From: Candidatus Yanofskybacteria bacterium RIFCSPHIGHO2_01_FULL_44_24 | GTDB taxonomy: Bacteria > Patescibacteriota > Minisyncoccia > 2-02-FULL-40-12 > GWA2-44-9 | Direction of reading: 5' to 3' | Assembly (NCBI GenBank): GCA_001794215.1 | Contig: MGJK01000018.1 | Span: 1 to 59,152 of the forward strand | Length of the DNA stretch: 59,152 nucleotides | Shown here: positions 3,511 through 59,095 of the stretch, in pieces | How the letters are laid out: every line of letters starts with the position of its first letter | How positions within the stretch are numbered: the stretch's first letter is position 1 | Program-made: the position numbers and the translations under genes | Notes under the pieces: model-generated | What the model was told of the DNA's origin: nothing | Databases searched by the model: none | What the model saw: only the letters and a program-made list of their open reading frames with translations

Positions 3511-4830
3511 TTGACCGCGCTTAAGCACAAAAAAACGGCCCCATTCATCGCCGCCATAGTCTTATGGGTATTTTTCGTTTTTTTCTGTACGGCATCCGCG
3601 GCTACGTCCACCCAAGAGGAGATCGCCGAAAAGCAAAGACAAATAGAGGAAATACAGAAACAAATAGAGGCCTACCAGCTTCAGGTAGATACTACCCGCT
3701 CGAAATCAAGGACATTAGAAAATGAGATCGGCGGTTTGAACGCCAAAATAAGCCAGCTGACCCTTGAGATAAGGGGCCTTGAGCTTTCCATCAACAAAAC
3801 CAGTCTCGAGATCAACGATACCGAAGCAAAGATAGGGGATGCCTCCACTAAAATCGGAAAACACAAAAACGCCCTCGCCCAATTTATTAAGATCCTTCAC
3901 GAAGCCGATCAGAAAACTCTTACCGAAGTATTGCTGAACAATCCGACGCTGTCTAATTTTTTCAATAATTTAAACAGCATTCAGGTTACTCAAAATAATT
4001 TAGGAAATACGATTCAGAACATAAAAACGCTTAAAATTAGCTTGGAAGAGTACCAAGCCGACCTGGAAGATAAGAAATCGGATCTTGAAAGATTAAAAAG
4101 GGTCGAGGACATAGAAAAAAGCAACCTCAACAAAAATAAATCCGACAAAAATAAACTTCTTAAAGACACCAAAGGCCAAGAGTCCAAATTCCAAGAGTTA
4201 ATCAAGAAATCGCAAAAAGACATAGAGGCTATCCGAAGCCAGGTTACGTATCTTCAACAATACGGAGTCACGGCCGAAGATGCAGTTAAATACGGCCAAT
4301 TGGCGGCGATAGCCACGAGCATAAGGCCCGCTTTCCTGATCGCTATTTTGGAAATAGAGTCCGGATTAGGAAGAAATGTCGGCACGGGTAACTGGTTAAA
4401 TGACATGTATGAATGCTACCGAAGACTTGGTAAATTATCGCGAGCCGAAGCTGAGAAGAAGGCATTCTTTCAGATAGTAGAACAGCTTGGCCTTGATCCT
4501 AATTCGGTCAAAGTTTCAAGAGAGCCCAACTACGGCTGTGGAGGCGCCTTGGGTCCGGCCCAATTTCTTCCTTCTACCTGGCTCGGATATGCAGAAAGAG
4601 TAGCTCGTCTAACCGGCAATAACCCTCCGAATCCTTGGAATATTGAAGACGCTTTCATGGCGGCGGCAATTAAATTAGCCGACGGAGGAGCTACATCAAA
4701 AGATAAAACCGGCGAGACCCGGGCTGCCAAGGCATATATCAGCGGCCGGCCCACCTGTACTTCAAGCATCTGCAACTATTACTCAAACGCCGTTCTCCGC
4801 AAGGCATCGGAGATAGAAAAGAATCTATAA
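3511..4830 (+). CDS. secreted coiled-coil protein with C-terminal MltB/SLT_2-like lytic transglycosylase domain
   Basis: TTG start and a signal-like N-terminus. About 230 aa of heptad-rich coiled coil. C-terminal motifs LEIESGLGRN and GPAQFLPSTW are typical of MltB-type lytic transglycosylases. Confidence 0.8.
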   Translation: MTALKHKKTAPFIAAIVLWVFFVFFCTASAATSTQEEIAEKQRQIEEIQKQIEAYQLQVDTTRSKSRTLENEIGGLNAKISQLTLEIRGLELSINKTSLEINDTEAKIGDASTKIGKHKNALAQFIKILHEADQKTLTEVLLNNPTLSNFFNNLNSIQVTQNNLGNTIQNIKTLKISLEEYQADLEDKKSDLERLKRVEDIEKSNLNKNKSDKNKLLKDTKGQESKFQELIKKSQKDIEAIRSQVTYLQQYGVTAEDAVKYGQLAAIATSIRPAFLIAILEIESGLGRNVGTGNWLNDMYECYRRLGKLSRAEAEKKAFFQIVEQLGLDPNSVKVSREPNYGCGGALGPAQFLPSTWLGYAERVARLTGNNPPNPWNIEDAFMAAAIKLADGGATSKDKTGETRAAKAYISGRPTCTSSICNYYSNAVLRKASEIEKNL

Positions 4831-4917: not shown

Positions 4918-4955
4918 ACCCCTACCCTTTATGATATATCATAAAGGGTAGGGGT
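4918..4955. repeat. PAL24 palindrome copy 1 (core CCCTTTATGATATATCATAAAGGG at 4925-4948, extended to 38 bp by ACCCCTA/TAGGGGT arms)
   Basis: Perfect inverted repeat read directly from the sequence. Intergenic, downstream of the 3511-4830 gene. Confidence 0.9.
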
Positions 4956-5144
4956 TAGGGATCAACAACGGAATGCAACTGATACCGGACATGAGGCGCA
5001 TGTATAGCGAACTTGGCTTAGTTTAGACGCTTCGAAGCATTGCGAGGTATTTGTCATTCAGTCACGTTTAAATTGAAACTTGTCATGTATTATGCTAAGT
5101 TTTTTATATTGTTTTTTGAAAATTTATAGTAAGATGGGGGAATA

Positions 5145-6407
5145 ATGAAGAGCAGGTTGAAATTATTTTTCGGAACTCTGTTCATGGTCTCGCTGATAGC
5201 CGTTTTTACGGTTGGACTTCGCGGACAAGGATCTCTTCCGACCCGCAACATAGAAGCTGAGGGGGCTGTCATAGCTCTGGAAGTTCTGCGTCCCGCATGT
5301 GATTTGGCCGGCCAAATCGAAGAGGCTAAGTTGCTTCTCAAAAACTCCGCTCCTCTCAAAATCTCGGAAACACCGAAAAGAGCCATTCTAAGAAAAGAAA
5401 TCTCTTTGGTTATCTTGGATACCCAGACATGCAGTATTACCGAATCAAGGTACTTGCTCGATGAGGCGGACGTTAAAAAAGCCAACGCCCTGAGAAGAGC
5501 CTACCAGGACAACCCCGGTAATTTGCCCAAATTCATGCCCGTAGATCCGAAAAATGAGTTCTCGGTCACAGTAAACTGGTGGAACAACCACAACTCCGAT
5601 CTGAGCATCGTTAAAGACGGTTCCGTGGAAGAAGATCGCTACATAGTAATCGCCAATAAATTCGCGATATCCAACGACAGCCTGGCCTATAACGAGGACA
5701 AGACCGGTCCCCGCTACTCGGACATTATCTATGTTCCTTATTCGAGCGGGATCCACGCCGATGCCTTAATAGAACTCGGAAAAAAATTTCTTAATGAAAA
5801 GGTGGATTCGGCTTTTGACGAACTGGCCCGGCAATCGGTTCAATCCGCGGCTTACCCGTCGAAATTGGTAACCGACGTCATCAGGAAAGAATTTCCGAAA
5901 AATCTTTTCATAACCGAACAGACAGACCCGGCTCTCATATTCGCCTCAAGCGACAACGGAAAAAGACTGGCTGAACGAGTTTTTATACGACTTGGAGCTA
6001 ACGGAGATAAGACTTTCCGTTATACATATTCCAAGACCGGAGCTTTAGGCCTTGGGCAGATTATGCCCGGCACTTACGGATCAATAGTTAAACGCTATCC
6101 GGCCGCAAAACTTCTCAGGGATATAGACATCGGCCGAGTTGATGTGGAAAATGGAATTAAAGCCACGATCTTGGTATTAGATGACCACTTCGCAACAGTA
6201 GTCAAAAACGCTAACGGTTCTTCAAAAGGCCGGACAATATTGGCCGGCAAGACCCATTCGGAAATTGAAGAAATTATGGCTGCCGCCTATAACGGCGGTC
6301 CAGGCAAATACAAGCCCCTGACCGGCACAATAAGTTTAGCCGTCAGAGAAACGGTAGACTTCGTAAGAAAATTCAAAATGATAAGAGACCTCAAGTTATT
6401 CGATTAA
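5145..6407 (+). CDS. secreted SLT-like (lytic transglycosylase/goose-lysozyme-type) domain protein
   Basis: GGGGG-type RBS 5 nt upstream and an N-terminal signal anchor. GALGLGQIMPGTY and AAYNGGPG resemble SLT domain motifs. The catalytic Glu is not confidently placed. Confidence 0.65.
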   Translation: MKSRLKLFFGTLFMVSLIAVFTVGLRGQGSLPTRNIEAEGAVIALEVLRPACDLAGQIEEAKLLLKNSAPLKISETPKRAILRKEISLVILDTQTCSITESRYLLDEADVKKANALRRAYQDNPGNLPKFMPVDPKNEFSVTVNWWNNHNSDLSIVKDGSVEEDRYIVIANKFAISNDSLAYNEDKTGPRYSDIIYVPYSSGIHADALIELGKKFLNEKVDSAFDELARQSVQSAAYPSKLVTDVIRKEFPKNLFITEQTDPALIFASSDNGKRLAERVFIRLGANGDKTFRYTYSKTGALGLGQIMPGTYGSIVKRYPAAKLLRDIDIGRVDVENGIKATILVLDDHFATVVKNANGSSKGRTILAGKTHSEIEEIMAAAYNGGPGKYKPLTGTISLAVRETVDFVRKFKMIRDLKLFD

Positions 6408-8097: not shown

Positions 8098-9252
8098 GTG
8101 AACAAGGTGAAAAGTCAATCAAAAACAATATATGTCGCCATGTCTGGCGGAGTGGATTCGAGCGTTGCGGCGGCATTACTCAAAAAACAAGGCTATAACG
8201 TAGTCGGGGTTTTTATGAAGCCGTGGCAGCCTTCGGCTTCAAATTCTAAATCCCAAATCCGAAATTCTAAACAAATTCTAAATCCCAAATCCGAAATTCT
8301 AAACGGGGAACTCTGTCTATGGAAGCAGGACAGAGAGGATGCCATGCGGGCGGCGGCGGTATTGGATATACCGCTTTTGACTTGGGATTTTTCAAAAGAA
8401 TACAAAAAAGAAGTGGGAGATTATATGATCCGGGAATATAGAGCCGGCCGGACGCCGAATCCGGATGTAATGTGCAATAAGGAAATCAAATTTGGCCTGT
8501 TTCTGAAGAGGGCTTTAAGGGAGGGAGCGGACTTTATTGCTACGGGACACTACGTGCGGCTAAAGCCGCAATTTCCAATTTCCAATTTTCAATTTTCAAG
8601 GAAACCACAGACTGGATTCAGACTTCTGCAAGCGATAGACAAGAATAAAGATCAGTCGTATTTCCTATGGACCTTGACCCAGGCGCAACTGAAGCATTGT
8701 TTGTTTCCGATAGGGGATTATGTGAAGCCGGAAGTAAGGAAAATGGCCAAGAAATTCGGACTGCCTAACCATGCTAAAAAAGACAGCCAGGGAGTATGCT
8801 TTATCGGGCCGTTAGATATGAAAGAATTTCTCAAAAAATATATTAGACCCAAGAAGGGCCAAATAATAGACAAGGAAGGTACCGTCATCGGGGAACATGA
8901 TGGAGCCTTTTATTATACCATCGGCCAAAGACACGGACTGGATATAAAAAACGGCCAAGGACCATACTATGTAATCGCAAAGAATTTAAAGAAAAACATT
9001 ATCTATGTCGGTAAAGACAAAGATTTAACAACGAAGAAGGCCCATGTCTCAGGCATAAATTGGACCAACTCTCGTATTAAATTACCGACTAAGATAGACG
9101 TGAAGGTAAGATACAGAGCCAAATCAGAAACGGCTAACTTATCTAAAAGAGGGGATTTGGAATTCAGAAAACCAATTCGAGCCATTACTCCCGGCCAATC
9201 AGCCGTTTTCTATAAAGGCGAGGAACTTGTCGGAGGGGGGATTATCGACTAA
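8098..9252 (+). CDS. mnmA: tRNA-specific 2-thiouridylase MnmA carrying two repeat-derived insertions
   Basis: PP-loop SGGVDSS. Also GHYVR, KDQSYFLW and GVCFIGP (second catalytic Cys region). GTG start. Confidence 0.9.
   Translation: MNKVKSQSKTIYVAMSGGVDSSVAAALLKKQGYNVVGVFMKPWQPSASNSKSQIRNSKQILNPKSEILNGELCLWKQDREDAMRAAAVLDIPLLTWDFSKEYKKEVGDYMIREYRAGRTPNPDVMCNKEIKFGLFLKRALREGADFIATGHYVRLKPQFPISNFQFSRKPQTGFRLLQAIDKNKDQSYFLWTLTQAQLKHCLFPIGDYVKPEVRKMAKKFGLPNHAKKDSQGVCFIGPLDMKEFLKKYIRPKKGQIIDKEGTVIGEHDGAFYYTIGQRHGLDIKNGQGPYYVIAKNLKKNIIYVGKDKDLTTKKAHVSGINWTNSRIKLPTKIDVKVRYRAKSETANLSKRGDLEFRKPIRAITPGQSAVFYKGEELVGGGIID
8241..8304 (+). repeat. perfect 2 x 32-bp tandem repeat (AAATTCTAAATCCCAAATCCGAAATTCTAAAC) inside mnmA
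   Basis: 8241-8272 is identical to 8273-8304. The two copies are translated in different frames as NSKSQIRNSKQ and ILNPKSEILN. Confidence 0.95.
8569..8600 (+). repeat. AT-rich oligomer array (CAATTTC/CAATTTT units) inside mnmA
   Basis: CAATTTCCAATTTCCAATTTTCAATTTTCAAG encodes QFPISNFQFS. It is the reverse-orientation relative of the AAATTC/GAAAATTG family. Confidence 0.85.
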
Positions 9253-14649: not shown

Positions 14650-14965
14650 TCTCGACCCCGATTCTCTCGAGGCACCGCATAGATACACTCAGCCTTGACT
14701 TATTCGAGGCACGCCATAAAGACGCTCCACTTTAACCCATGCAAGGCACGGCGTAAATTTCTCACTGAAATTTCGCCTTTTACCTGCCTGCCGGCAGGCA
14801 GGCTCGGCCCAGTCGGCCTCCGTAAATCCTTTCATGGTCTAAAGCTTCGCTTGGTGTTTGAACAAAAAGCCTGCGGGAATACTCTCATGAACAAAGAGCG
14901 GGGTCTCAAATGCTTCAGAATGACAAGGGGCTTCGCCTTAGTTTCCCTTAGTCGGATTAAGGCTC
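14650..14965 (-). repeat. R1 intergenic repeat, copy A (reverse orientation), interrupted by PAL20
   Basis: The reverse complement of 14803-14880 matches GGATTTACGGAGGCCGACTGGGCCGAG and upstream units of copies B and C. It contains a covarying hairpin at 14750-14777. Confidence 0.8.
14783..14802. repeat. PAL20 perfect palindrome CCTGCCTGCCGGCAGGCAGG inserted in R1 copy A
   Basis: Copies B and C read CCGAG-TAAAAGG without interruption. Copy A has the palindrome (plus one G) at exactly this junction. Confidence 0.9.
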
Positions 14966-27145: not shown

Positions 27146-28174
27146 TCAGGACTGAACCTTGCGGATGATCTCGTCAGTCATCTCAGTAGTACTGGCCGGT
27201 TTGCCGACACGATGTAAAAGATGGGCGTCTCCGGTGACAACACGGCCCTCGAAAACAACCTGGTAAACCGATTCTCTAATTTTCTTAGCTGCTTCGCTCT
27301 CTCCGATATGCTCGAGCATCATTACCGCGGAAAGAATCAGAGCCGATGGATTTGCTTTATTCTGGCCTGCGATATCCGGCGCCGTACCATGAACCGCCTC
27401 AAATAATGCTACGCCTTCTCCGATATTCGCTCCGGGCGTAAAGCCCAAACCCCCTACTAAACCGGCGCATTCATCAGAAAGGATATCCCCGAACATATTC
27501 GTTAAAACAATAACATCGTATTCGGAAGGATACATAACAAGTTCTTTGGCCATATTATCGACGATCCTGTCCTGGAAGACAATATCGGGATAGCGGGCCG
27601 AGATGCTTCTTCCGGCATTCAGAAAAAGTCCCTGGGTGAGTTTAAGAATATTGGCCTTATGAGCGCAGGTCACCTTCTTTCTGCCGTGCTTCGTTGCATA
27701 CTCAAAAGCGTGCCGGAAAATACGCTCTGATTCAAATTTGCTTATTCGGCTTACGGCCTCGGCTATAGTATGCGCATCATCTACCCACCGCTCCTCACCG
27801 ATATAAATATCCTCGGTCCCTTGCCTGAAAACAACGATATCAACGTCCTTAAATGGAGTGATCTGACCGGGAATAATCTTCACCGGCCGGATGTTAGCGT
27901 AAAGATCGAGCTTCATGCGAAGCTCGACATTAGCACTACGGTGGCCTTCGCCTAACGGAGTATCAGTTGGGCCTTTCAAGCCCAACTTATTCCGTATTAG
28001 GGAATCAAGGGTCTCCTTCGGCAGAGCGTTACCGGTTTCTTTTAGAACCCCCAGCCCGGCACGTGCAACTTCCCAGTCTATTTTCACACCGGCAGCCTCA
28101 ATCACCCGTTGAGTTGCGGCAGTGACTTCCGGTCCGATTCCATCTCCAAGAATAAGCGTAGCTCTATAGGCCAT
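27146..28174 (-). CDS. isocitrate/isopropylmalate dehydrogenase family enzyme (NAD-IDH/homoisocitrate-DH-like)
   Basis: LILGDGIGPEV, RSANVELRMKLDLYANIRP and NMFGDILSDE. Confidence 0.85.
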   Translation of the reverse strand: MAYRATLILGDGIGPEVTAATQRVIEAAGVKIDWEVARAGLGVLKETGNALPKETLDSLIRNKLGLKGPTDTPLGEGHRSANVELRMKLDLYANIRPVKIIPGQITPFKDVDIVVFRQGTEDIYIGEERWVDDAHTIAEAVSRISKFESERIFRHAFEYATKHGRKKVTCAHKANILKLTQGLFLNAGRSISARYPDIVFQDRIVDNMAKELVMYPSEYDVIVLTNMFGDILSDECAGLVGGLGFTPGANIGEGVALFEAVHGTAPDIAGQNKANPSALILSAVMMLEHIGESEAAKKIRESVYQVVFEGRVVTGDAHLLHRVGKPASTTEMTDEIIRKVQS

Positions 28175-28283
28175 TTGTTCCTTTGTTTTAAAAGATATAC
28201 GTATAAATAATATGATGCATTAATTTTTAAGTTTGGTCAACCTTCCCTCAAATCCCTCAAAAATTTTGCCGAAAGATCTATTT

Positions 28284-28327
28284 TAAACCGCCGCCCTTTA
28301 TGATATATCATAAAGGGCGGCGGTTTA
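28284..28327. repeat. PAL24 palindrome copy 2 (44-bp perfect palindrome; core 28294-28317)
   Basis: TAAACCGCCG-CCCTTTATGATATATCATAAAGGG-CGGCGGTTTA. Intergenic, downstream of the PBP1A gene. Confidence 0.9.
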
Positions 28328-28435
28328 TCTTTTCGTTTACGCCAGATTCCATTTGGATACGACAAGAATTAAAACCTCGACGACATTCCTGTCCGGGATT
28401 TTCTGTATTGAAATAAAAATCCCCCGAACAGGGGA

Positions 28436-30664
28436 TTACTTTTTACCGAGGTATATATCAATGCTCTTTTCGATCTCTTCAGGGAAAGCCGGCGCAGGAC
28501 CGACTAACTTTCGGTCGTAAATCTTTTTAACTATTTCTCGAAAGACAGGCAGGGCCGCTCGTCCGCCGGCTTCTTTATTTCCAAGACCGCGGGCCGGACC
28601 AGTTCCAAAATTACCGCTTTCATCATAACCAAGAGACGGCTCATCGAATCCGATTTTAACTCCGACGGTTATTCCTTCGGATCCATAAGTGGCGCCGATG
28701 AACCAAGCATCCTTGAAGTCATTAGTGGTGCCTGTCTTTCCCATCACCGCAACTCCAAAATCTTTGTTATCGAGAGAATGGGCGGTTCCATCGGGAAGAC
28801 GAACTACGCCTCTAAGCCCTTCCTGAATCAGCTGAAGAACTCCTTCTTTTACAGGAACGGGCACCGGCTCTTTGCGTTTATTAGAAAAGATAAGCCTGCC
28901 GGTCCGATCGGTAATTCTCTCAATCATATACGGTTCAGCTAAAGATCCTGAGGCAATCGACCTATAGACATTGGCAAGCTCGAGGAGATTAACTTCCGAG
29001 GCGCCAAGAGCGGTAGTGATATAAGGCTGCAGTTCGGTTTTGATACCCAAAGATTTAGCAACATCGATAACCTGGTCAATCCCGCCATTAGCCCTAACAA
29101 GCCAAACAGTTGCCGCGTTTCTTGATTCGGCAAGAGCAACCCTCAAAGGAATCGCACCCTTATACTTACCGTCATAATTGCTGATGGTCTTGGCGGGACG
29201 GTTGTTACCCATCGCCACATGAACCGGAATATCCATAACCGGCTGATCAAGAGTCCAGCCGTTTTCAAAAGCGGTAATATAGTCAAGAGGTTTGAAAGAT
29301 GAACCCGGTTGACGAATTGAGTAGGTAACCCTGTTAAGGTCGCTGTATTTATAGGGATGGCCCTTAAAATACTGACGACCGCCGGATTGGGCAAGAATAG
29401 CGCCGTCACTATTTCTCAAAACAATTACGCATCCCTGGATAAGCCCCTTGGCTTCCGGGTGGCGATCTTCATAGGCTTTTAAGCCGCTCTCCAGGGCGTG
29501 ATTAACAATGTCCTGAATTTTAAGATTGGCCGTCGAATAAATCTGAATTTTTCCGTTAAACAGATCGTCCGAGTTCTGGCTATGCCGCCTGAGTTCTTTG
29601 AAAATATCGCCCACAACCGAAGGAGCAATGGTCTTGGTCCGCCCCGGAATCACGATCGGAAGATCGCGCTGCTTGAAATTGTTGACGTCTTGCTTGAGTA
29701 TATATCCGTTCTCGACCATAAGGTCTAAAACGGCATTCCGCCTGTTAACCTGCCTTTGAAGCTCGAGTTTCGACGGTTTCACCGAAGGACCGTAAGCGGT
29801 CGGATTTTTAATCGTGCCGGCTAAGAGAGCGGCTTTATCGGCGTCGTCCGGACCGAAATCCCCGATTTTCTTGTCGAAATAAAACTCTGACGCCGCTTCT
29901 ACGCCGTAACGGCCGTACTTAAGATAAGCATAGCTTGCATACCGAGCCAAGATTTCTTCTTTGGCGGTTTGCTTTGAACCAAAATACTCCGGCTTAGCTA
30001 ACTCTTTTTCCAGCCAAATCGCTATCCGCGCCTCTTCAAGCTTTCTGAATAATCGGTTGGTGCGCGAAGGACCCAATACTTTACTTAGCGCTTTCGACAA
30101 AAAACTATCCGAGATCAGAACGTCTTTTCTTTCGTTGGCCATCGTATCGGATAAAAAGTACAGCCGGACAATCTGCTGAGTAATCGTTGAAGCGCCCTGC
30201 TCGAATGCAATATTCGGACGGCCTTTGCGTACCGTTGATTTAATCGAATGAAACGTATCAACATAAAAAGCTCTGCCGATAGCCCATTTATCAATGCCGT
30301 TGTGGCTATAGAAGGCCCCGTCTTCGGCTGAAATAATAGCCTGCTTTACGATCGGAGGAATTTCATCCGGCCTTACTATGCGCCGGTATTCATTGGCAAG
30401 CTCGATAACAACCCGTCCGTCTTTGTCGTATATCACCCCTATCGTCGGAGCCTCAAAGTTGATAAAAGATTTCACATCGGGCAAATCGCTTCTGTAGAGA
30501 TAGATATAGATCAGAACCGGGGCTGCCAAGGTAAGGAAGCACAGGAAAAGCGCACCCACAGCCTTCCAAAAGATGGAATAAGCCCGCCAACTGCCTCTTA
30601 CGAATAACCAGCAGCCCTTGAGGAAGTTGTAGGTTTTAGAGCCGACCTTCAGGATTCGTTTCAA
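28436..30664 (-). CDS. bifunctional penicillin-binding protein 1A (glycosyltransferase GT51 + transpeptidase)
   Basis: AEDGAFYSHNGID, GASTITQQ, SSFKP (SxxK), SRN and KTGTT. N-terminal TM anchor. Confidence 0.9.
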   Translation of the reverse strand: MKRILKVGSKTYNFLKGCWLFVRGSWRAYSIFWKAVGALFLCFLTLAAPVLIYIYLYRSDLPDVKSFINFEAPTIGVIYDKDGRVVIELANEYRRIVRPDEIPPIVKQAIISAEDGAFYSHNGIDKWAIGRAFYVDTFHSIKSTVRKGRPNIAFEQGASTITQQIVRLYFLSDTMANERKDVLISDSFLSKALSKVLGPSRTNRLFRKLEEARIAIWLEKELAKPEYFGSKQTAKEEILARYASYAYLKYGRYGVEAASEFYFDKKIGDFGPDDADKAALLAGTIKNPTAYGPSVKPSKLELQRQVNRRNAVLDLMVENGYILKQDVNNFKQRDLPIVIPGRTKTIAPSVVGDIFKELRRHSQNSDDLFNGKIQIYSTANLKIQDIVNHALESGLKAYEDRHPEAKGLIQGCVIVLRNSDGAILAQSGGRQYFKGHPYKYSDLNRVTYSIRQPGSSFKPLDYITAFENGWTLDQPVMDIPVHVAMGNNRPAKTISNYDGKYKGAIPLRVALAESRNAATVWLVRANGGIDQVIDVAKSLGIKTELQPYITTALGASEVNLLELANVYRSIASGSLAEPYMIERITDRTGRLIFSNKRKEPVPVPVKEGVLQLIQEGLRGVVRLPDGTAHSLDNKDFGVAVMGKTGTTNDFKDAWFIGATYGSEGITVGVKIGFDEPSLGYDESGNFGTGPARGLGNKEAGGRAALPVFREIVKKIYDRKLVGPAPAFPEEIEKSIDIYLGKK

Positions 30665-41103: not shown

Positions 41104-42756
41104 TTAGGCAGCCTCTTGAGTCTCGACTCTGGTTTCCGGTTCTGGAGGAAGGGCTTTTTCTATTTCTTCATCGGTTATTTTAATCAATCCCTTCGTTACT
41201 TCTTTAAGTATCTGCGCCTTCAAATCTCGAGACAAAAACTGTTCCGGCCCGCCGGAAGGCTTACCAGCCTCGAGCCAATGACTAAACACTTCCTTAAATT
41301 CTTTGGTTGTTATTTCTAAAACCAAAACCTCATCTACTATTTTTGCCACTCCTTTTTTATACTTTCTCAGATTTATAGATAGTCCGCTCCCCTTTTTATC
41401 CAAATGGGTTTTTAACTGTATCCCTAACTTATAAAGAGTGCCCTTAACACTCTCTCCCTCTTCTAATTTTACGCCTCTATTCCTATTCTTGGCTCTTATT
41501 TTAAAATCATACTTATAAACACCGTCCTCAAAAGAGTTTGCCCGCATAACTATAAAATCCAGATCGTTATTTAAACTTAGCCTGTTGAATAACTCTCTAA
41601 CAACCACCTCTGCCATAAGCCCCAACGTCCCTGCTTGATTTTTTTCGAATTTGGAAAGTTCTGGAAAGGCAGTACTCGCACCAGTTTCTGAAGAAGCCAG
41701 CTCTCTATCATATATCCCCTCTAAATCCCTTCTCGTCTCATTAACTAAGATCCTCTTGGCTAACTGTCTATAAGCCGGCTCTATCATCTCACCATCAGGA
41801 ACATATTTAATTCCCCAGGCATAATCAGAAACAATATCTCCTATGCCTATAGATTTCCTGCTACCGTTTTCTTCCATATAATACTCCCCCGTTTCTTCAT
41901 CAAAATATACGACCCTTCTCGACTCTTCGCCAAATTCTTTTACTATCTCGCCCTTGTCAAGGTTTTTGATAGCCTTTTTTAGTTCCGACATTCTTTCTAT
42001 TTTCTTCTCACCGTATTTTTCTTTTAGTCTTTTAATCTTTTTGTCAGATCGTTCAAGTTTTCGGTCCGCTTTTTCTTTATTCCTTTTCTCTTCTTGCTCT
42101 CTCTCTTGCTCCGGAGTAAGGTGACGATTGGAAAAGCTAACCCCGAATCTTTCTTTCCACCACTTTTCTAACGCCCGATCAAATGCGGATTGGCTTTTCG
42201 GCGGAAGCCGTTCTCCGCTCAGCTTTCGGTTGATGAGGTCTTGTATCTCTTCGGAAAACTCTAACTTGGCCTCAACCACAATATCCCACCACCCCTTTTC
42301 AGCGTCTCTCTCGGTTCTTTCAGGTTTTTGATCTTCGATAGTCTGGTCACCTTCACCTTCCCGAGCCTCAATTTCTTTTTCTTTTGCTGTGCCGGGTTTC
42401 GTTCCTCTTGTTAGTATTTCTGCCGCAACTCGTTTTCGATTATACTTCGCAAAATCTGCTCCGAACTTATCTTTAAACCACTGGGTGGCAGCAGAGTTAA
42501 ATTGAGACTGCTCCTCCGGTTCAAGAGCCTCGCCACGAGACATTTTATTGATAAGGTCGAGTAGATTCTCCGGAATCTCTTTCCGGAAAGCCATTAAAAT
42601 CTTCCTCATTAAGCGCCTCCGTCCGATATCGCCATAAATGCCCTTGCGAGTCTCCTTATTGTACTGAGTTTCTGTCTCGGAATTTTTTACTTCAAACTCC
42701 GGGATCGCAATATCCCCTTCTAAGCTTTTGCCGATTTTAGGTCCTCGTTCTCGCAT
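41104..42756 (-). CDS. Lys/Glu-rich hypothetical protein with an internal about 45-aa duplication
   Basis: 550-aa ORF. LLDLINKMSRGEALEPEEQSQFNSAATQWFKDKFGADF aligns to IQDLINRKLSGERLPPKSQSAFDRALEKWWKERFGVSF. Confidence 0.7.
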   Translation of the reverse strand: MRERGPKIGKSLEGDIAIPEFEVKNSETETQYNKETRKGIYGDIGRRRLMRKILMAFRKEIPENLLDLINKMSRGEALEPEEQSQFNSAATQWFKDKFGADFAKYNRKRVAAEILTRGTKPGTAKEKEIEAREGEGDQTIEDQKPERTERDAEKGWWDIVVEAKLEFSEEIQDLINRKLSGERLPPKSQSAFDRALEKWWKERFGVSFSNRHLTPEQEREQEEKRNKEKADRKLERSDKKIKRLKEKYGEKKIERMSELKKAIKNLDKGEIVKEFGEESRRVVYFDEETGEYYMEENGSRKSIGIGDIVSDYAWGIKYVPDGEMIEPAYRQLAKRILVNETRRDLEGIYDRELASSETGASTAFPELSKFEKNQAGTLGLMAEVVVRELFNRLSLNNDLDFIVMRANSFEDGVYKYDFKIRAKNRNRGVKLEEGESVKGTLYKLGIQLKTHLDKKGSGLSINLRKYKKGVAKIVDEVLVLEITTKEFKEVFSHWLEAGKPSGGPEQFLSRDLKAQILKEVTKGLIKITDEEIEKALPPEPETRVETQEAA

Positions 42757-42860
42757 TTAAAAACTATACCAAATTTGATAACTTTATCAAAACCGATACA
42801 TTCCCGACCCGAAATTCTTCCGCCGAATAATCAAAGCGTGGCCTTAAATAATGATCAGTG

Positions 42861-42884
42861 CCCTTTATGATATATCATAAAGGG
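42861..42884. repeat. PAL24 palindrome copy 3 (core only)
   Basis: CCCTTTATGATATATCATAAAGGG. The flanks are not complementary here. Confidence 0.9.
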
Positions 42885-42902
42885 TGACGGCTTAGGACAG
42901 AT

Positions 42903-43045
42903 CTTGGTTTATGGAAATTTTTGTTTAAACGATAAGCGAAGCCTTAACCCGATGAAGGGATTTACGGAGGCCGACTGGGCCGAGTAAAAGGCAAGATTTT
43001 AGCAAAAATCTATGCCGTGCCCTGAAATGGGTTAAGGCGAAGCAC
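42903..43045 (+). repeat. R1 intergenic repeat, copy B
   Basis: 42952-43026 is identical (75/75 by my alignment) to 58999-59073. Hairpin at 42990-43016. Confidence 0.85.
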
Positions 43046-43047
43046 CT

Positions 43048-43503: not shown

Positions 43504-43634
43504 AAATTCTAAGCACTAAGCACTAAATTCTAAACAAATTCAAAATCCTAAACCCAAAAGCTTTAAACTGTTTTAATATTGGAGTTTCGATCATTTGACG
43601 TTGTTTAGTATTTAGGTATTAGAATTTAGAGTTT
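43504..43634. repeat. AT-rich oligomer arrays in inverted arrangement abutting the rplI start codon
   Basis: Left arm AAATTCTAAGCACTAAGCACTAAATTCTAAACAAATTCAAAATCCTAAACCC. Right arm GTTTAGTATTTAGGTATTAGAATTTAGAGTTT. Confidence 0.8.
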
Positions 43635-46946: not shown

Positions 46947-48038
46947 CTAACTAAACCATTTACCTATCTCATTCGGGCCAACTTTGGCTCTGGACATTAT
47001 TTCTCTTCTCTTTCTCAGCATCTTAGGAAAAAATCTGAGAAAATTGGGAACCTCTGAAAGAACCCGGGGTTCAAAAATTAATATATAGCCGAACAGCATA
47101 ATCTCCCGTTTCAAGATATATGGCAAGTCTTTCAAGATGTTTATTATATAGTCATTTTTGAGAATTGTAAAACGGGTATTGCGCCAATCGAGGCCCCTTT
47201 TTCTCATCGGAACTTCCCTTCTGATTCTTATGAAGTCCATCCAGTTTTTACGCAGTGTTTTGGTGGTCTGCCGATCATGCCAAGCAATCACTGCCGGCGC
47301 AAAGATCTGTTTCCAGCCGAATAAATTCATCCGCCAGGCCAAATCAAAATCATCGCCGTACCAGAAATAATCATGGTCAAAGATTTCATTAGTGGGTAGC
47401 TGGTAGTGGGTAGTTGGTAGTGGAATCCTGCACGATTCAAGAGCGCTTTTTCTGAAAAACGGCGCCGCTCCTTCGACTCCGAATATCTCCACCGATCCGC
47501 CGGACGGCGGATCATACTGGCCGATATCTTTTTCCCCATGGCCCATATTTACCAGCCTGCGAGACTTAAAGATCTTAAATCCAAAAGTGTCGATAATTGT
47601 AGGTTGTAGGTTGTAGGTTGTAGGTTGTAGGTCAGTTAATTCATACCTGTAAATCTTTGCCTGTAAGGCGCCGATTTTTTCATCACGTTCCATGACCTCG
47701 ACGGCATTTTTAATAAAATCTTTATCGAGTATCACATCGACTGCCACTGCTAAGACGTATTTACAGCTTGAACGTTTCAATAATTCTTCCTGTCCCGGCC
47801 ACATCCCTAAATTTGATTTGGATTTCACCAAATCAAATTTAGGAAATTTAGAATTTAAAATTTTAAATTTAAAATTCTCGATAATGCCGATGGTATTATC
47901 GAGCGATCCGTTGTCGAGAATATTAAATTCTATAAGCTCGTGCGGGTAAGTCTGGGCTAAAACTGCGTCCAAAAAATGGCGGATGTATTTTTCACCGTTG
48001 AGAACAACGAGGTTAATCGTAACTTTAAGCATTGACAT
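46947..48038 (-). CDS. GT2-family glycosyltransferase with three repeat-derived insertions
   Basis: INLVVLNGEKYIRHFLDAVLAQTY and ILDNGSLDNT. The insertions encode KFKILNSKFPKFD, LQPTTYNLQPT and PTTHYQLPT. Confidence 0.8.
   Translation of the reverse strand: MSMLKVTINLVVLNGEKYIRHFLDAVLAQTYPHELIEFNILDNGSLDNTIGIIENFKFKILNSKFPKFDLVKSKSNLGMWPGQEELLKRSSCKYVLAVAVDVILDKDFIKNAVEVMERDEKIGALQAKIYRYELTDLQPTTYNLQPTIIDTFGFKIFKSRRLVNMGHGEKDIGQYDPPSGGSVEIFGVEGAAPFFRKSALESCRIPLPTTHYQLPTNEIFDHDYFWYGDDFDLAWRMNLFGWKQIFAPAVIAWHDRQTTKTLRKNWMDFIRIRREVPMRKRGLDWRNTRFTILKNDYIINILKDLPYILKREIMLFGYILIFEPRVLSEVPNFLRFFPKMLRKRREIMSRAKVGPNEIGKWFS
47392..47423. repeat. GTGGGTAG/TGGTAG oligomer array inside GT2 CDS
   Basis: GTGGGTAGCTGGTAGTGGGTAGTTGGTAGTGG. 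Confidence 0.8.
47597..47631. repeat. 5 x 7-bp perfect tandem repeat (TTGTAGG) inside GT2 CDS
   Basis: Read directly from the sequence. The unit length is not divisible by 3. Confidence 0.95.
47807..47879. repeat. AT-rich oligomer array with a 13-bp inverted repeat inside GT2 CDS
   Basis: AAATTTGATTTGG-ATTTCAC-CCAAATCAAATTT followed by AGGAAATTTAGAATTTAAAATTTTAAATTTAAAATTC. Confidence 0.8.
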
Positions 48039-51357: not shown

Positions 51358-51472
51358 AAACTCTAAATCCTAATGTCTAAATTCTAAACAATATCCAATA
51401 TTAAAACTCTAATGTTCGAAATTTAATATCTTGAGATTTGAATTTTGTATTTGTTTAGAAATTAGGATTTCG
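51358..51472. repeat. AT-rich oligomer arrays in inverted arrangement, abutting the GT4 start codon
   Basis: Left arm AAACTCTAAATCCTAATGTCTAAATTCTAAAC. Right arm GTTTAGAAATTAGGATTTCG. Confidence 0.8.
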
Positions 51473-51475: not shown

Positions 51476-52387
51476 TTAGGATTTTACTCGCCCCATTCTG
51501 TTCATATACCAATCGAAAACTCCATCTAAGATCGCCCGCGACTCCTCTTCGTTAATGTTTAATCCCATCTTCAAAAATTGTTTTAAAATTATTACCCAGC
51601 TCCATGGCCAGACCGCTACCTTGATATACCACGGACCGTTTTTCCGGTTAAAATACAGGGCATTCCGATAGTGATATCTCAATAAAAGCGGTGAGCCAAG
51701 TTTTTTGGTTGTGGCCGAAACATTATGGTGTATCATAACCTTATCTGTGATTGAGATGGGGATTTTAGCTCTTCTAGCCCTGACGCAAAAGTCGGCATCC
51801 TCAAAATACAAAAAATATTTTTCATCAAGCTCGCCGATTTTATCAAAGGCATCTTTCGATATCACCATCGCCCCGCCAACAGCATAGAATTTGGAATTCC
51901 TGCCCGTCCGGCAGGCGGGTGGAATTTGGAATTTGGAATTTTCATAATCATGTCGAAGAGTCGGTTTCAGCCACTCTATTCTACCGCAATAAGCCGTCCT
52001 GTCCTCCTCCACCAAGGGTAACCCTACTATGCCCCCTGAAGACCCTAATTTGACCCTTAAAGAGGCTATGAAGTCCTCCCCTACCCAAGTATCGTTATTC
52101 AATAAGAGCACCCAATCTGCCCTGTTTTCCAGGGCCTGACCTATACCCACATTGTTACCCCCCGAGAACCCTAAATTCTTCTTATTTCTTACTACAGATG
52201 CTACAAAGGGCATCTTTGCAAAGATGCCCTTTGTAGCTGTTTGCAAACTTATAAAATCTGCTCCATCCGAAGCGTTGTCCACAATAACTATTTCAAAATC
52301 CCGATCCGTTTGTTCATAAAGAGACCTCAAAAGCTTAGTCGTATTTTCCGAGCCGTTATAGTTGATTGTGATGATAAAAAGTTTCAA
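51476..52387 (-). CDS. GT2-family glycosyltransferase (rhamnosyltransferase-like) with a composite repeat insertion
   Basis: FIITINYNGSENT, IVDNASDG, LNNDT and YFEDADFC. Confidence 0.8.
   Translation of the reverse strand: MKLFIITINYNGSENTTKLLRSLYEQTDRDFEIVIVDNASDGADFISLQTATKGIFAKMPFVASVVRNKKNLGFSGGNNVGIGQALENRADWVLLLNNDTWVGEDFIASLRVKLGSSGGIVGLPLVEEDRTAYCGRIEWLKPTLRHDYENSKFQIPPACRTGRNSKFYAVGGAMVISKDAFDKIGELDEKYFLYFEDADFCVRARRAKIPISITDKVMIHHNVSATTKKLGSPLLLRYHYRNALYFNRKNGPWYIKVAVWPWSWVIILKQFLKMGLNINEEESRAILDGVFDWYMNRMGRVKS
51887..51943. repeat. composite insertion inside GT2 CDS: GGAATTT units flanking a PAL20-like GC hairpin
   Basis: GAATTTGGAATT-CCTGCCCGTCCGGCAGGCGGG-TGGAATTTGGAATTTGGAATTTTC. 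It encodes ENSKFQIPPACRTGRNSKF. Confidence 0.8.
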
Positions 52388-55729: not shown

Positions 55730-55867
55730 AATATTAAATCCGAAATACGAAATCCTAAATCCTAAACAAAGCCCGAAAATCTTAAATTCTAATTTCCAAA
55801 CCTTTTGAAATTTAGAAAATTTGCATTTCGATATTGTTTCGAATCTCGAATTTCGTATTTCGAATTT
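55730..55867. repeat. AT-rich oligomer arrays filling the murA-mreB intergenic region
   Basis: Left side AAATCCGAAATACGAAATCCTAAATCCTAAAC...AAATTCTAATTTCC. Right side CGAATCTCGAATTTCGTATTTCGAATTT in inverted orientation. Confidence 0.8.
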
Positions 55868-58339: not shown

Positions 58340-58687
58340 CTACAGGTTTATGCCGGCAATATTCTTCAGTCTGTCTCTCAGAAGCATTATCAAAAACGGA
58401 TCCCCTTGCCTATACCTATCCGGAATATCAAGAATATAAATATCCTTGCTGAAAACATCAAAACCAGAACGAAGCAGTGTTAGGTGAGCATCTTCATTCT
58501 CATTCATCACAATTATTCTATCGGCCCAATCAACTAACTCCTGAGTAACCAACTGGCCGGTTCCCTCGCACCACTTAAAACCCGCCGACTTAGCTTCATA
58601 AACGGAAGAGCCCAGTAAAAGGTCTTCCGCCGTCCGACTGCGGCTGATATTTGCAGTGCAAATGAATAAAACCTTGATCTTGGCCAC
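58340..58687 (-). CDS. low-molecular-weight protein tyrosine phosphatase/ArsC-fold protein
   Basis: KVLFICTANISRSRTAE contains the C-x5-R-S P-loop. Confidence 0.8.
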   Translation of the reverse strand: MAKIKVLFICTANISRSRTAEDLLLGSSVYEAKSAGFKWCEGTGQLVTQELVDWADRIIVMNENEDAHLTLLRSGFDVFSKDIYILDIPDRYRQGDPFLIMLLRDRLKNIAGINL

Positions 58688-58796
58688 CTTCCGCTCCTCG
58701 CCTAAAAGAACTCGGGGATATGATATATCAATTCTTCTTTACCGGCAAAGGACAGTAACTCGGCCTTAGCCTTGTTAAGGAATTAATGAGGAGAAC

Positions 58797-58840
58797 CAAT
58801 CCGCCACCCTTTATGATATATCATAAAGGGTGGCGGATTG
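58797..58840. repeat. PAL24 palindrome copy 4 (44-bp perfect palindrome; core 58807-58830)
   Basis: CAATCCGCCA-CCCTTTATGATATATCATAAAGGG-TGGCGGATTG. Confidence 0.9.
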
Positions 58841-59095
58841 AGACAGGCCTTGGCTTATGAGAGGATTTGCATAGGTTCCTATTTATCAAGCGTAGCCGTA
58901 ACCCATGAAAGGATTCACGAAAAGCCATAACGAAGCCTTGGCTTATTAGAGGATTTGCGCAGGCTTTTTGTTCAAACATCAAGCGCAGCCTTAACCCTAT
59001 GAAGGGATTTACGGAGGCCGACTGGGCCGAGTAAAAGGCAAGATTTTAGCAAAAATCTATGCCGTGCCCTGAACGGGTTAATTCGAAGCGTTTTT
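58841..59095 (+). repeat. R1 intergenic repeat, copy C (two tandem about 90-nt units plus hairpin tail)
   Basis: Units start with GCCTTGGCTTATGAGAGGATTTGC (58848) and GCCTTGGCTTATTAGAGGATTTGC (58937). The tail is identical to copy B. Hairpin at 59037-59063. Confidence 0.85.

What the first reader, a model, noticed from the sequence alone, without database searches (positions are those of the whole stretch)
28284..28327. 24-bp perfect palindrome CCCTTTATGATATATCATAAAGGG present four times, three copies with different but self-complementary flanking arms
The four copies are:
- 4918-4955: arms ACCCCTA/TAGGGGT, 38 bp in total.
- 28284-28327: arms TAAACCGCCG/CGGCGGTTTA, 44 bp.
- 42861-42884: core only.
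- 58797-58840: arms CAATCCGCCA/TGGCGGATTG, 44 bp.

The core is invariant. The arms differ between copies yet stay perfectly complementary within each copy. That means either selection for a long hairpin/cruciform or a mechanism that creates palindromes.

Copies 1-3 are intergenic and lie 3' of a gene and 5' of the next co-directional gene. Copy 4 is also intergenic, but the gene 3' of which it would lie is beyond the window edge. Copies 3 and 4 immediately abut the R1 repeat, and copy 1 is followed about 60 nt later by an R1-like CTTGGCTTAG motif.

An AT-rich centre with GC clamps and stems of 12-22 bp is atypical for simple terminators. It could be a binding site for a dimeric protein, a REP/PATE-like element recognised by a Y1 (TnpA-REP-like) enzyme, or an RNA processing signal.
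Basis: seen in the sequence. Interest (0 to 1): 0.7.

Follow-up and report, generated by a model that had tools for sequence, protein, structure and literature searches.

The report
Palindromic operator of a TrpR-like regulator
The four palindromes are real and are most likely the DNA docking sites of a small TrpR-family repressor that is shared across the tiny "candidate phyla radiation" bacteria, which points to a previously undescribed gene-control circuit (many DNA-repair and nucleotide genes) in a group whose regulation is almost unknown.

Summary
The 24-mer CCCTTTATGATATATCATAAAGGG occurs four times, with 0 expected by chance. Three copies carry different but perfectly complementary arms, giving palindromes of 38, 44 and 44 bp.

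The conserved unit is the 16-mer TTATGATATATCATAA. It recurs in many Patescibacteria (CPR) genomes. The window itself looks like Woesebacteria.

- **Arms:** across 48 independent sites the flanks pair within a site far more than between sites (z = 10.4).
- **Not a mobile insertion:** the 16-mer also sits inside uvrC, ychF, nfo and tatD, always read as (F/V)MIYH(K/N). YchF and TatD show no net length change, and six uvrC orthologues share it base for base.
- **Key link:** a ~145-aa TrpR-fold gene is bracketed by the palindrome in every one of 11 distinct loci examined. The upstream copy lies 19-28 nt before the start codon in 7 of the 8 loci with the canonical or near-canonical 16-mer. Divergent family members are bracketed by different palindromes.

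I conclude the palindrome is this regulator's operator. Neighbouring genes elsewhere (recA, uvrD, recG, dut, pyrG, peroxiredoxins, groEL) suggest a repair, nucleotide and stress regulon.

The arms look like the ordinary hairpin stems of these genomes, but their role is unresolved. Binding is inferred, not shown, and the regulator gene is not in the window.

The parts
4918..4955 (.). Copy 1: a 38-bp perfect palindrome (24-mer core at 4925-4948 plus 7-bp arms). It lies between SLT-domain genes 3511-4830(+) and 5145-6407(+).
   Evidence: As single-stranded DNA the hairpin has dG -17.9 kcal/mol, z -7.6. Its centre is about 200 nt upstream of the predicted promoter at 5103-5130.
28284..28327 (.). 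Copy 2 (the reported locus): a 44-bp perfect palindrome (core at 28294-28317 plus 10-bp arms). It lies between the PBP1a gene's own terminator and the promoter of the isocitrate/isopropylmalate dehydrogenase gene 27146-28174(-).
   Evidence: The hairpin has dG -24.2 kcal/mol, z -10.4. The sequence is identical in four other assemblies that span this intergenic region (L015, L016, L019, L020); two Logan contigs (L017, L018) instead begin at the core.
28418..28437 (-). An ordinary intrinsic terminator of the PBP1a gene (AATCCCCTGTTCGGGGGATT followed by a T tract). It shows that copy 2 is not needed to terminate that gene.
28212..28240 (-). Predicted sigma-70-like promoter of the dehydrogenase gene (TTGACC-17-CATCAT). 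The centre of copy 2 lies at about -100 from the implied start.
   Evidence: This is a consensus match only.
42861..42884 (.). Copy 3: the 24-bp core only. It lies between rplI (L9, 43048-43503, -) with the R1 repeat, and the 550-aa gene 41104-42756(-).
   Evidence: The hairpin has dG -7.8 kcal/mol. The predicted promoter at 42763-42790(-) puts the core centre at about -116.
58797..58840 (.). Copy 4: a 44-bp perfect palindrome (core at 58807-58830 plus 10-bp arms). It lies between R1 repeats and the ORF 58340-58687(-).
   Evidence: The hairpin has dG -23.4 kcal/mol, z -12.4.
58720..58748 (-). Predicted promoter TTGCCG-17-TATCAT of ORF 58340-58687. Its -10 region, TTGATATATCATAT, repeats half of the core (58720-58731). 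It may be a weak second site, about 93 bp from the centre of copy 4.
   Evidence: The role as a second site is inference.
51723..51738 (-). Possible degenerate fifth site: TTATGATACACCATAA, 2 mismatches. It lies inside glycosyltransferase gene 51476-52387 and is read as VMIHHN.
   Evidence: The identical variant lies 33 nt from a perfect site in L005. It may still be a chance match.

Best explanation
The palindrome is the operator (DNA binding site) of a dimeric TrpR-family helix-turn-helix regulator that is widespread in Patescibacteria/CPR.

**The recognised unit.** It is the 16-bp dyad TTATGAT-AT-ATCATAA. In most lineages it extends to the 20-mer CTTTATGATATATCATAAAG, and in this genome to 24 bp.

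**How it probably works (inferred).**
- The regulator represses its own gene. One operator covers the spacer and -10 of its promoter, and a second operator sits just past its stop codon.
- The same protein binds copies scattered through the genome. Most are in intergenic regions and some are inside genes.
- Elsewhere those copies lie next to or inside DNA-repair, nucleotide-pool and stress genes.
- In the window the four copies lie about 100-200 bp upstream of the predicted promoters of four unrelated genes. They would act there as distal or auxiliary operators, or as weak bidirectional promoter-operators.

**The arms.** The variable self-complementary arms are a second layer that the protein does not read. 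They turn the operator into the tip of a long G+C-rich hairpin of the same type as the ordinary hairpins and terminators of these genomes. They were either selected (RNA hairpin, terminator or cruciform) or produced by template-switch 'perfecting' around a protected palindrome.

**What is shown and what is inferred.**
- Shown: motif conservation, arm covariation, the DNA-level constraint, the TrpR fold, and the bracket architecture that varies with the protein.
- Inferred: actual binding, repression, the content of the regulon, and the role of the arms.
For: **1. Link between the motif and the gene.**
- Motif-only scans returned 44 loci. Five of them carried a ~145-aa PF01371 (Trp_repressor) gene with a core on each side: L034, L036, L037, L040 and L044.
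- In the reverse direction, contigs fetched through the protein (L055, L056, L057) again showed cores just upstream and just downstream of the gene.
- In 7 of 8 loci the upstream core ends 19-28 nt before ATGAAA.
- L037 and L044 show TTGAAA-17-TATCAT with the core covering the spacer and the -10.

**2. Protein and site vary together.** More divergent family members (36-55% identity to the query protein) are bracketed by different palindromes:
- L058: CTTTGATTCTATGATTAATCAAAG, twice.
- L062/L063: a 24-mer upstream and its reverse complement downstream.
- L064: TACCTATCAT-NN-ATGATAGGTA, twice.
- L055: the variant TTATGGTTCATCATAA.

**3. The protein is a TrpR-family member.**
- Pfam scores of 48.7-50.4 bits against a cutoff of 27.
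- Sequence hits to the TrpR-like structures 3g1c, 3frw and 3kor.
- All of the top 43 fold matches of the AlphaFold model are TrpR or TrpR-like, with target-normalised TM 0.69-0.79.
- TrpR-family regulators (TrpR, and HisR = YerC) bind 20-bp palindromes and are often autoregulated (PMC9413887).

**4. The constraint is on the DNA, and the motif is not an insertion.**
- Six uvrC orthologues keep the exact 16-mer, although only 43-54% of codons at conserved residues are identical elsewhere (measured on three of them).
- YchF and TatD show no net length change against solved homologues.

**5. Site distribution.**
- Sites are strongly intergenic. 11 of 63 lie in ORFs, where 80% of the sampled DNA is ORF.
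- Sites are often clustered 22-110 nt apart.

**6. Neighbouring or host genes.** recA, uvrD, recG, uvrC, nfo, tatD, dUTPase, dCMP deaminase, Ham1, pyrG, thioredoxin reductase, peroxiredoxins, groEL, htpX and Nramp.

**7. The arms.**
- Covariation within a site gives z = 10.4.
- Arms are contiguous and perfect; in 60 of the 63 non-redundant sites no mismatch interrupts the stem.
- They have the same C-rich 5' / G-rich 3' polarity as ordinary hairpins.
- The orthologues L038 and L039 differ by a compensatory pair, G-C to A-T.
Against: - No binding experiment exists.
- The regulator gene is not in the window. I could not show that this genome, apparently a Woesebacteria, encodes it.
- The window's four sites are 100-200 bp from the predicted promoters, and their neighbour genes are not repair genes.
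- A 16-24 bp motif with no degeneracy carries much more information than a transcription factor needs in a ~1 Mb genome.
- 7 of 63 sites lie between convergent genes and about 11 lie in ORFs. That is unusual for a simple repressor.
- The protein model does not explain why flanks that it does not read should be complementary.
- The regulon theme rests on a few dozen neighbour genes and has no formal enrichment test.
Confidence: 0.68

Rival explanations
1. The palindrome is the box of a different regulator, such as LexA or an XRE/DdrO-like damage repressor. On this view the TrpR-like gene is merely its most consistently regulated target.
For: - The neighbour genes look like an SOS or damage regulon: recA, uvrD, recG, uvrC and nfo.
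- The motif's ends, TTATG...CATAA, resemble Deinococcus RDRM sites such as TTTTATGTCATTGACATAAT (PMC8533742).
- A LexA regulon has been described in Patescibacteria (Sanchez-Osuna et al. 2017, cited). I could not read that paper.
Against: - No LexA-like gene turned up in about 430 kb sampled around the sites, whereas the TrpR-like gene turned up repeatedly.
- The bracketing palindrome changes when the TrpR-like protein diverges. That is expected for a cognate operator and not for another regulator's box.
- RDRM has a 17-bp spacing and is bound by a different protein fold.
Confidence: 0.1
2. The functional unit is the hairpin itself, in RNA or single-stranded DNA. It could be a terminator, a transcript-stabilising element or an RNase III processing element with a conserved tip. 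The link to the TrpR-like gene would then be secondary.
For: - The arms covary.
- Stems reach 19-22 bp with dG down to -24 kcal/mol.
- The arms have the polarity and G+C content of ordinary hairpins.
- 30% of long-armed sites have a T/A tract, against 7% of short-armed sites.
- Some sites fit tightly between co-directional genes (stop codon, 3 nt, hairpin, 6 nt, ATG in L008) or lie at convergent 3' ends.
Against: - About half of the sites have no arms, and the bare core is only -7.8 kcal/mol.
- Copy 2 lies just after a normal terminator.
- A strictly invariant 16-nt tip shared across superphylum-level divergence points to a sequence-specific reader.
- Interrupted arms and G.T pairs are almost absent (3 of 63 sites have any internal mismatch, 2 of them G.T), unlike typical selected RNA stems.
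- Sites are conserved inside genes.
Confidence: 0.1
3. A mobile or selfish palindromic element: REP with a RAYT transposase, a MITE/PATE, or a Rickettsia-palindromic-element-like insertion that can land in genes.
For: - The copies within a genome are identical.
- The motif occurs in coding regions in a single open frame, as Rickettsia palindromic elements do.
- Nfo carries 5 extra residues at the site.
- An IS3-type transposase and an integrase lie next to two sites.
Against: - YchF and TatD show no net length change.
- The uvrC site is at the same position and base-identical in six diverged orthologues, which means long-term constraint rather than decay.
- There are no target-site duplications.
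- The window has no Y1 or other transposase.
- REPs are extragenic by definition.
Confidence: 0.04
4. A DNA uptake signal for natural transformation. It would be maintained by uptake bias, as with Neisseria DUS or Pasteurellaceae USS.
For: - An invariant motif is shared by related lineages.
- It occurs in tolerant linker regions of genes without any change in length.
- It shows an apparent bias towards genome-maintenance genes.
- It occurs as extended inverted repeats at gene ends.
- A near-perfect copy lies inside a ComEC gene (L055 6307).
- The DUS properties used for comparison are from my own knowledge.
Against: - The density is about 1 per 15 kb here, and lower elsewhere (1 in 21 kb in L059). 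Known uptake sequences occur about once per kb.
- Uptake bias does not explain the bracket around the TrpR-like gene that varies with the protein.
- The sites are strongly intergenic.
Confidence: 0.05

Closest known systems
E. coli TrpR with its trp/aroH/trpR operators, and HisR (YerC) with its 20-bp palindromic operators (PMC9413887)
   Same: - The protein fold and Pfam family match.
- The operator is a ~20-bp dyad.
- There is an operator in the regulator's own promoter, which implies autoregulation.
- The consensus is lineage-specific and drifts with the protein.
   Different: - The consensus differs. Here it is TTATGAT-AT-ATCATAA, against HisR cacTTTAnnnnnnTAAAgtg and TrpR TGTAcTnGTnnACnAgTACA.
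- The protein has a ~45-residue C-terminal extension.
- The gene is bracketed by operators on both sides.
- There are many sites, some inside genes.
- The neighbouring genes are not amino-acid biosynthesis genes.
- The sites carry variable hairpin arms.
- The effector molecule is unknown.
Deinococcus RDRM motif with the DdrO repressor and IrrE protease
   Same: Both are palindromes of 16-17 bp with TTATG...CATAA ends, found near recA-type repair genes and independent of a canonical SOS box.
   Different: - DdrO is an XRE-family protein that is cleaved by a protease.
- The spacing differs by 1 bp.
- No IrrE-like partner was seen here.
- The resemblance may be coincidental.
CIRCE/HrcA inverted repeat (from my own knowledge)
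   Same: It is a highly conserved inverted repeat found across phyla. It is read as DNA by a repressor, and when transcribed it can also act as an RNA hairpin. Both layers seen here, the operator and the hairpin, are therefore precedented in principle.
   Different: - CIRCE has a 9-bp spacer and no variable outer arms.
- It is restricted to chaperone operons.
- It is not found inside genes.
REP elements with RAYT transposases, and Rickettsia palindromic elements
   Same: These are also short palindromic repeats scattered through a genome. Rickettsia palindromic elements can likewise be translated in frame.
   Different: Here there is no net length change in YchF and TatD, no transposase, base-perfect conservation at orthologous positions, and a cognate helix-turn-helix gene.
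Neisseria DUS and Haemophilus USS (from my own knowledge)
   Same: - Invariant motifs are imposed on coding sequence in tolerant frames.
- They are over-represented in genome-maintenance genes.
- Inverted pairs form terminators.
   Different: The density here is 10 to 100 times lower, the motif is 16-24 bp and itself palindromic, and it is tied to a regulator gene.

Membership tests
Operator of a TrpR-family transcription factor | A dyad-symmetric site of about 20 bp | tested here: met
   The 16-mer is a perfect dyad. It extends to 20 bp in most sites and to 24 bp in all four window copies. The family norm of 20-bp palindromes is taken from PMC9413887.
Operator of a TrpR-family transcription factor | The cognate regulator has the TrpR fold and family signature | tested here: met
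   PF01371 scores 48.7-50.4 bits against a cutoff of 27. PDB sequence hits are 3g1c, 3frw and 3kor. The top 43 fold matches are all TrpR or TrpR-like.
Operator of a TrpR-family transcription factor | The site lies in the regulator's own promoter (autoregulation) | tested here: met
   The upstream core ends 19-28 nt before the start codon in 7 of 8 loci. In L037 and L044, TTGAAA-17-TATCAT overlaps the core. This is positional evidence only.
Operator of a TrpR-family transcription factor | The site sequence changes when the regulator diverges | tested here: met
   L058, L062/L063, L064 and L055 carry different bracketing palindromes.
Operator of a TrpR-family transcription factor | The regulator is encoded in the same genome as the sites | tested here: inconclusive
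   This is true for MAG CAYTBY01: L057 carries the gene, and L007-L009, L011 and L014 carry sites. The gene is not in the 59-kb window, and the rest of that genome was not available.
Operator of a TrpR-family transcription factor | Direct, sequence-specific binding and an effect on transcription | not testable with these tools
   This needs EMSA or footprinting and reporter or transcriptome assays.
REP element with a RAYT (Y1) transposase, or a PATE | An associated Y1/IS200-like transposase | tested here: not met
   Pfam scans of essentially all window ORFs of 100 aa or more found no transposase. This covers the window only.
REP element with a RAYT (Y1) transposase, or a PATE | Strictly extragenic, imperfect palindromes with conserved stems | tested here: not met
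   Copies occur inside uvrC, ychF, nfo and tatD. Here the tip is conserved and the stems vary.
MITE or Rickettsia-palindromic-element-like insertion | Presence adds a unit of fixed length relative to empty sites or homologues | tested here: not met
   YchF aligns with no gap and TatD shows no net length change. In the uvrC linker, orthologues without the motif show no motif-sized gap. Nfo has 5 extra residues, the one ambiguous case.
Intrinsic (Rho-independent) terminator | A G+C-rich stem followed by a U tract, downstream of a gene | tested here: inconclusive
   The arms resemble ordinary terminator stems. Only 30% of long-armed sites have 5 or more T/A in the adjoining 8 nt. Copy 2 scores as terminator-like only on the strand opposite to its genes, and it follows a genuine terminator.
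LexA (SOS) box | The box lies upstream of lexA itself, and a LexA gene is present | tested here: not met
   tblastn with E. coli LexA (sequence recalled from memory) found nothing better than E = 0.6 in about 430 kb around the sites. The published Patescibacteria LexA motif could not be consulted.
DNA uptake sequence | Very high genomic density, about one per kb | tested here: not met
   There are 4 copies in 59 kb of the window and 1 in 21 kb of L059.

The most novel reading that the evidence does not exclude
The 16-mer and its TrpR-like protein form a superphylum-wide global circuit for DNA-damage, nucleotide-pool and stress genes in Patescibacteria, independent of LexA.

Its operators would be dual-purpose. 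As double-stranded DNA they are read by the repressor. As extended perfect hairpins or cruciforms they act in a second way, for example as conditional terminators or roadblocks, or as structures that sense supercoiling or damage and release the repressor.

The operators imposed on coding sequence, which appear as the FMIYHK/VMIYHN peptide in UvrC, YchF, Nfo, TatD and ComEC, would be functional parts of the circuit.
Probability: 0.22. Interest if true: 0.78.

Novelty: new member of a known kind. Interest (0 to 1): 0.55.

Why it matters
Almost nothing is known about gene regulation in Patescibacteria/CPR. These bacteria make up a large share of bacterial diversity, have tiny genomes with few regulators, and are mostly uncultivated.

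The result gives three concrete things:
- A 16-bp operator conserved base for base across Microgenomates-, Parcubacteria- and Saccharibacteria-labelled genomes.
- A named candidate regulator.
- A candidate regulon that includes recA, uvrC, uvrD, recG and nucleotide-sanitising genes.

Together these make a testable entry point. One purified 145-aa protein and one oligonucleotide are enough for the first experiment.

The result also matters for annotation. The recurrent FMIYHK/VMIYHN peptide in unrelated proteins is a DNA signal, not a protein motif. In addition, assemblies tend to break at these palindromes.

The self-complementary arms may be a case of regulatory palindromes being built into hairpins, or growing into them. 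That bears on how palindromes arise and persist in small genomes.

Tried and rejected
- **Rfam.** The gathering scan of the window found only tRNA-Gly. The permissive scan around copy 3 found only noise.
- **Orthologous empty sites.** I planned to anchor on the isocitrate dehydrogenase gene. It has no relative above 58% identity, and every contig carrying it is the same strain with the same palindrome.
- **G.T against A.C mismatch asymmetry, to separate RNA from DNA selection.** This was uninformative because the arms hold almost no internal mismatches.
- **Simple terminator reading.** T/A tracts are only weakly enriched.
- **Promoter reading for the window copies.** There is no good -35 at the right spacing; the best match is 9 of 12.
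- **Literature.** Searches for the sequence itself, and for Saccharibacteria/Patescibacteria with palindromes or uptake sequences, found nothing relevant. The 2017 Patescibacteria SOS paper is not held.
- **A conserved partner gene next to the TrpR-like gene.** The 137-aa ORFs in L056 and L057 are unrelated to each other.
- **L049.** Its 124-nt palindrome at a contig end was set aside as a probable assembly fold-back.
- **Off-lineage hits.** The hits in Gracilibacteria, a Solitalea-like symbiont and Caproiciproducens (L001, L012, L013) were not followed up and may be chance matches.
Full report
**1. The observation**

The 24-mer CCCTTTATGATATATCATAAAGGG occurs exactly four times in the window, at 4925, 28294, 42861 and 58807. 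There are no further copies at up to three mismatches, and 100 shuffles gave none.

As single strands they fold with -17.9, -24.2, -7.8 and -23.4 kcal/mol.

All four copies are intergenic. Copies 3 and 4 abut the R1 repeat.

**2. Where the sequence comes from**

- The same contig recurs in Rifle-aquifer and related groundwater assemblies.
- One window protein shares a 90%-identity cluster with a protein of 'Candidatus Woesebacteria bacterium GWB1_43_5'.
- The window's genes are typical of CPR bacteria: PBP1a, MreB, MurA-like, glycosyltransferases, RNase Y, PriA and ribosomal protein L9. There is no transposase and no LexA.

**3. The motif elsewhere**

I scanned one genome per species and JGI metagenomes for the central 20-mer. 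This returned 44 loci, nearly all of them CPR contigs. The contig and homologue labels are Saccharibacteria for the MAGs, and Taylorbacteria and Yanofskybacteria for the protein homologues.

The invariant unit turned out to be the 16-mer TTATGATATATCATAA. The two bases on each side vary by lineage: CT/AG, AG/CT or GA/TC. Sites are often clustered 22-110 nt apart.

**4. The arms are real**

- I compared 48 non-redundant sites. The flanks at positions 3-12 outside the 16-mer are complementary within a site in 40-71% of cases. Left and right flanks taken from different sites pair in only 26-40%.
- In total 255 positions pair, against 148 +/- 10 in 2000 permutations (z = 10.4). The signal fades about 12-13 nt out.
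- The arms are contiguous and perfect, with almost no internal mismatches or G.T pairs.
- The orthologous sites in L038 and L039 differ by a compensatory G-C to A-T pair.
- The arms are C-rich on the 5' side and G-rich on the 3' side. Ordinary G+C-rich hairpins and terminators in these genomes have the same polarity: 0.5 C against 0.26 G in the 5' arm.
- Only 30% of long-armed sites have an adjoining T/A tract, against 7% of short-armed sites.
- Long arms occur in every context, including inside genes.

**5. It is not an inserted element**

The 16-mer also lies inside genes. It is always in the only frame without a stop codon and reads (F/V/I)MIYH(K/N). The genes are uvrC (L038, L039, L011), ychF (L014), nfo (L045, L046), tatD (L003, where it forms a 40-bp perfect palindrome) and a ComEC gene (L055, one mismatch).

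Alignment to solved homologues gives these results:
- YchF shows no gap.
- TatD shows no net change in length.
- Nfo shows five extra residues.

In uvrC, 16 of the 120 closest orthologues carry xMIYHx at the same linker position. Others carry decayed forms (VMVYHN, VMIHHN) or unrelated sequence, with no motif-sized gap at the site.

All six uvrC orthologues whose DNA I read have the exact 16-mer. Elsewhere in the gene only 43-54% of codons at conserved residues are identical (compared among three of them).

The constraint is therefore on the DNA. It is old and specific to the site. This rules out a REP, MITE or Rickettsia-palindromic-element type of insertion.

**6. The key association**

A ~145-aa gene of the Trp_repressor family (PF01371) lies between two cores in five of the motif-derived loci: L034, L036, L037, L040 and L044.

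I then fetched contigs through the protein instead of through the motif. The pattern was the same in L056 and L057, and L055 showed it with a variant core.

The upstream core ends 19-28 nt before the start codon in 7 of 8 loci. In L037 and L044, TTGAAA-17-TATCAT places the core over the spacer and the -10. The second core follows the stop codon, sometimes between convergent genes.

More divergent family members are bracketed by different palindromes:
- L058: CTTTGATTCTATGATTAATCAAAG, twice.
- L062/L063: a 24-mer upstream and its reverse complement downstream.
- L064: TACCTATCAT-NN-ATGATAGGTA, twice.

All 11 distinct loci examined are bracketed, and the site changes when the protein diverges. 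That is the signature of a cognate, autoregulated operator.

The protein's closest solved relatives are TrpR-like/HisR structures. The top 43 fold matches of its AlphaFold model are all TrpR or TrpR-like. TrpR-family regulators bind 20-bp palindromes and are commonly autoregulated (PMC9413887).

**7. A possible regulon**

Genes that adjoin or contain sites in other genomes fall into four groups:
- Repair and recombination: recA (171 nt upstream), uvrD, recG, uvrC, nfo, tatD.
- Nucleotide pool: dUTPase, dCMP deaminase, Ham1/RdgB, pyrG.
- Redox and stress: thioredoxin reductase, two peroxiredoxin-type genes, groEL, htpX, Nramp.
- Others: ksgA, the CCA-adding enzyme, sua5, rpiB, smpB.

The theme of repair, nucleotide pool and stress is suggestive, but I did not test it formally. 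No LexA-like gene appeared in about 430 kb around the sites. The published Patescibacteria LexA motif could not be consulted.

The motif's ends resemble Deinococcus RDRM sites. I treat that as a lead only.

**8. The window's own copies**

Predicted promoters of the downstream genes place the palindrome centres at about -100 (copy 2), -116 (copy 3), -105 (copy 4) and -200 (copy 1).

Copy 2 lies between a normal terminator and the next promoter. The -10 region of the gene below copy 4 repeats half of the core, and may be a weak second site about 93 bp away.

The neighbouring genes are two SLT-domain proteins, an isocitrate/isopropylmalate dehydrogenase, an unknown 550-aa protein and a small phosphatase-like ORF. 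None is a repair gene. The TrpR-like gene is not in the window.

**9. Mechanism and confidence**

My best reading, at about 0.68, is that the 16-24 bp dyad is the operator of this TrpR-like repressor.

The arms are a separate layer that the protein does not read. There are two possible causes:
- **Selection.** The arms would be selected as hairpin stems, acting as terminators, as RNA elements or as cruciforms.
- **Template switching.** Template-switch correction around a palindrome that selection keeps intact would make and maintain the arms.

Their terminator-like polarity favours selection or co-option of terminators. Their perfection and the near-absence of internal mismatches and G.T pairs favour a DNA-level process. 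The same window also holds an unrelated 38-bp perfect palindrome inside a glycosyltransferase gene, which favours a DNA-level process as well. I could not decide between the two causes.

**10. Rivals**

| Rival | Confidence |
|---|---|
| Another regulator's box | 0.10 |
| A hairpin element that acts without a protein reader | 0.10 |
| A DNA uptake sequence | 0.05 |
| A mobile palindrome | 0.04 |

The evidence for and against each is given in its own section.

**11. Novelty**

The held literature contains neither the sequence nor any description of such a motif in CPR bacteria.

The thing belongs to a known kind: a TrpR-family operator with autoregulation. The following features appear to be undescribed:
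- the consensus sequence;
- its breadth across the superphylum;
- the bracket around the regulator gene;
- the operators imposed on coding sequence;
- the hairpin arms.

I rate the finding as moderately interesting and readily testable.

Noticed in passing
window 42885-43047; 58841-59089; 14803-14868 (-); L009 971-1043: The R1 repeat is a structured unit of about 100-160 nt, a closing stem around three hairpins. It is present in at least three places in the window and at 80% identity in a different MAG. The RNA fold gives z = -4.06 on the + strand and -3.07 on the - strand. No Rfam family matches. In two of the four cases it directly abuts the palindrome.
   Followed up: partly
window 52200-52237: A 38-bp perfect palindrome with no spacer (GCTACAAAGGGCATCTTTGCAAAGATGCCCTTTGTAGC) lies inside glycosyltransferase gene 51476-52387(-) and is translated as ATKGIFAKMPFVA. 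It is unrelated to the core. It suggests that these genomes make or tolerate long perfect palindromes even in coding DNA.
   Followed up: partly
window 51723-51738; L005 2522-2537: The same 2-mismatch variant of the core, TTATGATACACCATAA, occurs inside the window's GT2 gene (read as VMIHHN) and 33 nt from a perfect site in an unrelated contig. It may be a weak operator or a chance match.
   Followed up: partly
window 8241-8328, 43504-43559, 51358-51413, 55729-55784; also 47583-47634, 53705-53742, 53449-53557: Short tandem repeats of 7-8 nt lie in intergenic DNA. The units are AAATTCTAAATCCCAAATCCG..., GTAGGTT and AATTTTC/GAAAATT. Several abut start codons, including those of rplI, mreB and a glycosyltransferase. 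Their function is unknown.
   Followed up: no
L017 and L018 (position 1); the contig-length column: Logan contigs begin exactly at the 16-mer. Many contigs that carry the TrpR-like gene are only 0.55-1.5 kb long. Assemblers evidently break at this repeated palindrome, so it will be under-represented inside MAG contigs.
   Followed up: partly
L049 972-1095: A 124-nt perfect palindrome centred on the core lies at the end of a 1095-nt contig. It is most likely an assembly fold-back artefact and not biology.
   Followed up: no
L057 8562-9981: A 702-nt tandem duplication lies upstream of the TrpR-like gene. Each unit carries three cores and a 137-aa ORF with no known domain, which gives seven operators in 1.4 kb.
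   Followed up: partly
window 27146-28174: The isocitrate/isopropylmalate dehydrogenase gene just downstream of copy 2 has no relative above 58% identity among 5.8 billion proteins. Its best named matches come from other phyla, so it may have been acquired laterally.
   Followed up: no
L050 34-905; L054 61-1129: An IS3-type transposase (rve domain) and a phage-integrase-like gene each end within 30-70 nt of a core. This could be coincidence, or mobile elements may target the palindrome.
   Followed up: no
L055 6307-6322: A ComEC (competence) gene carries a one-mismatch core in frame (VMVYHN). Together with uvrC, ychF, nfo and tatD, this shows that the FMIYHK/VMIYHN peptide in unrelated CPR proteins is a DNA signal and not a protein motif.
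   Followed up: partly
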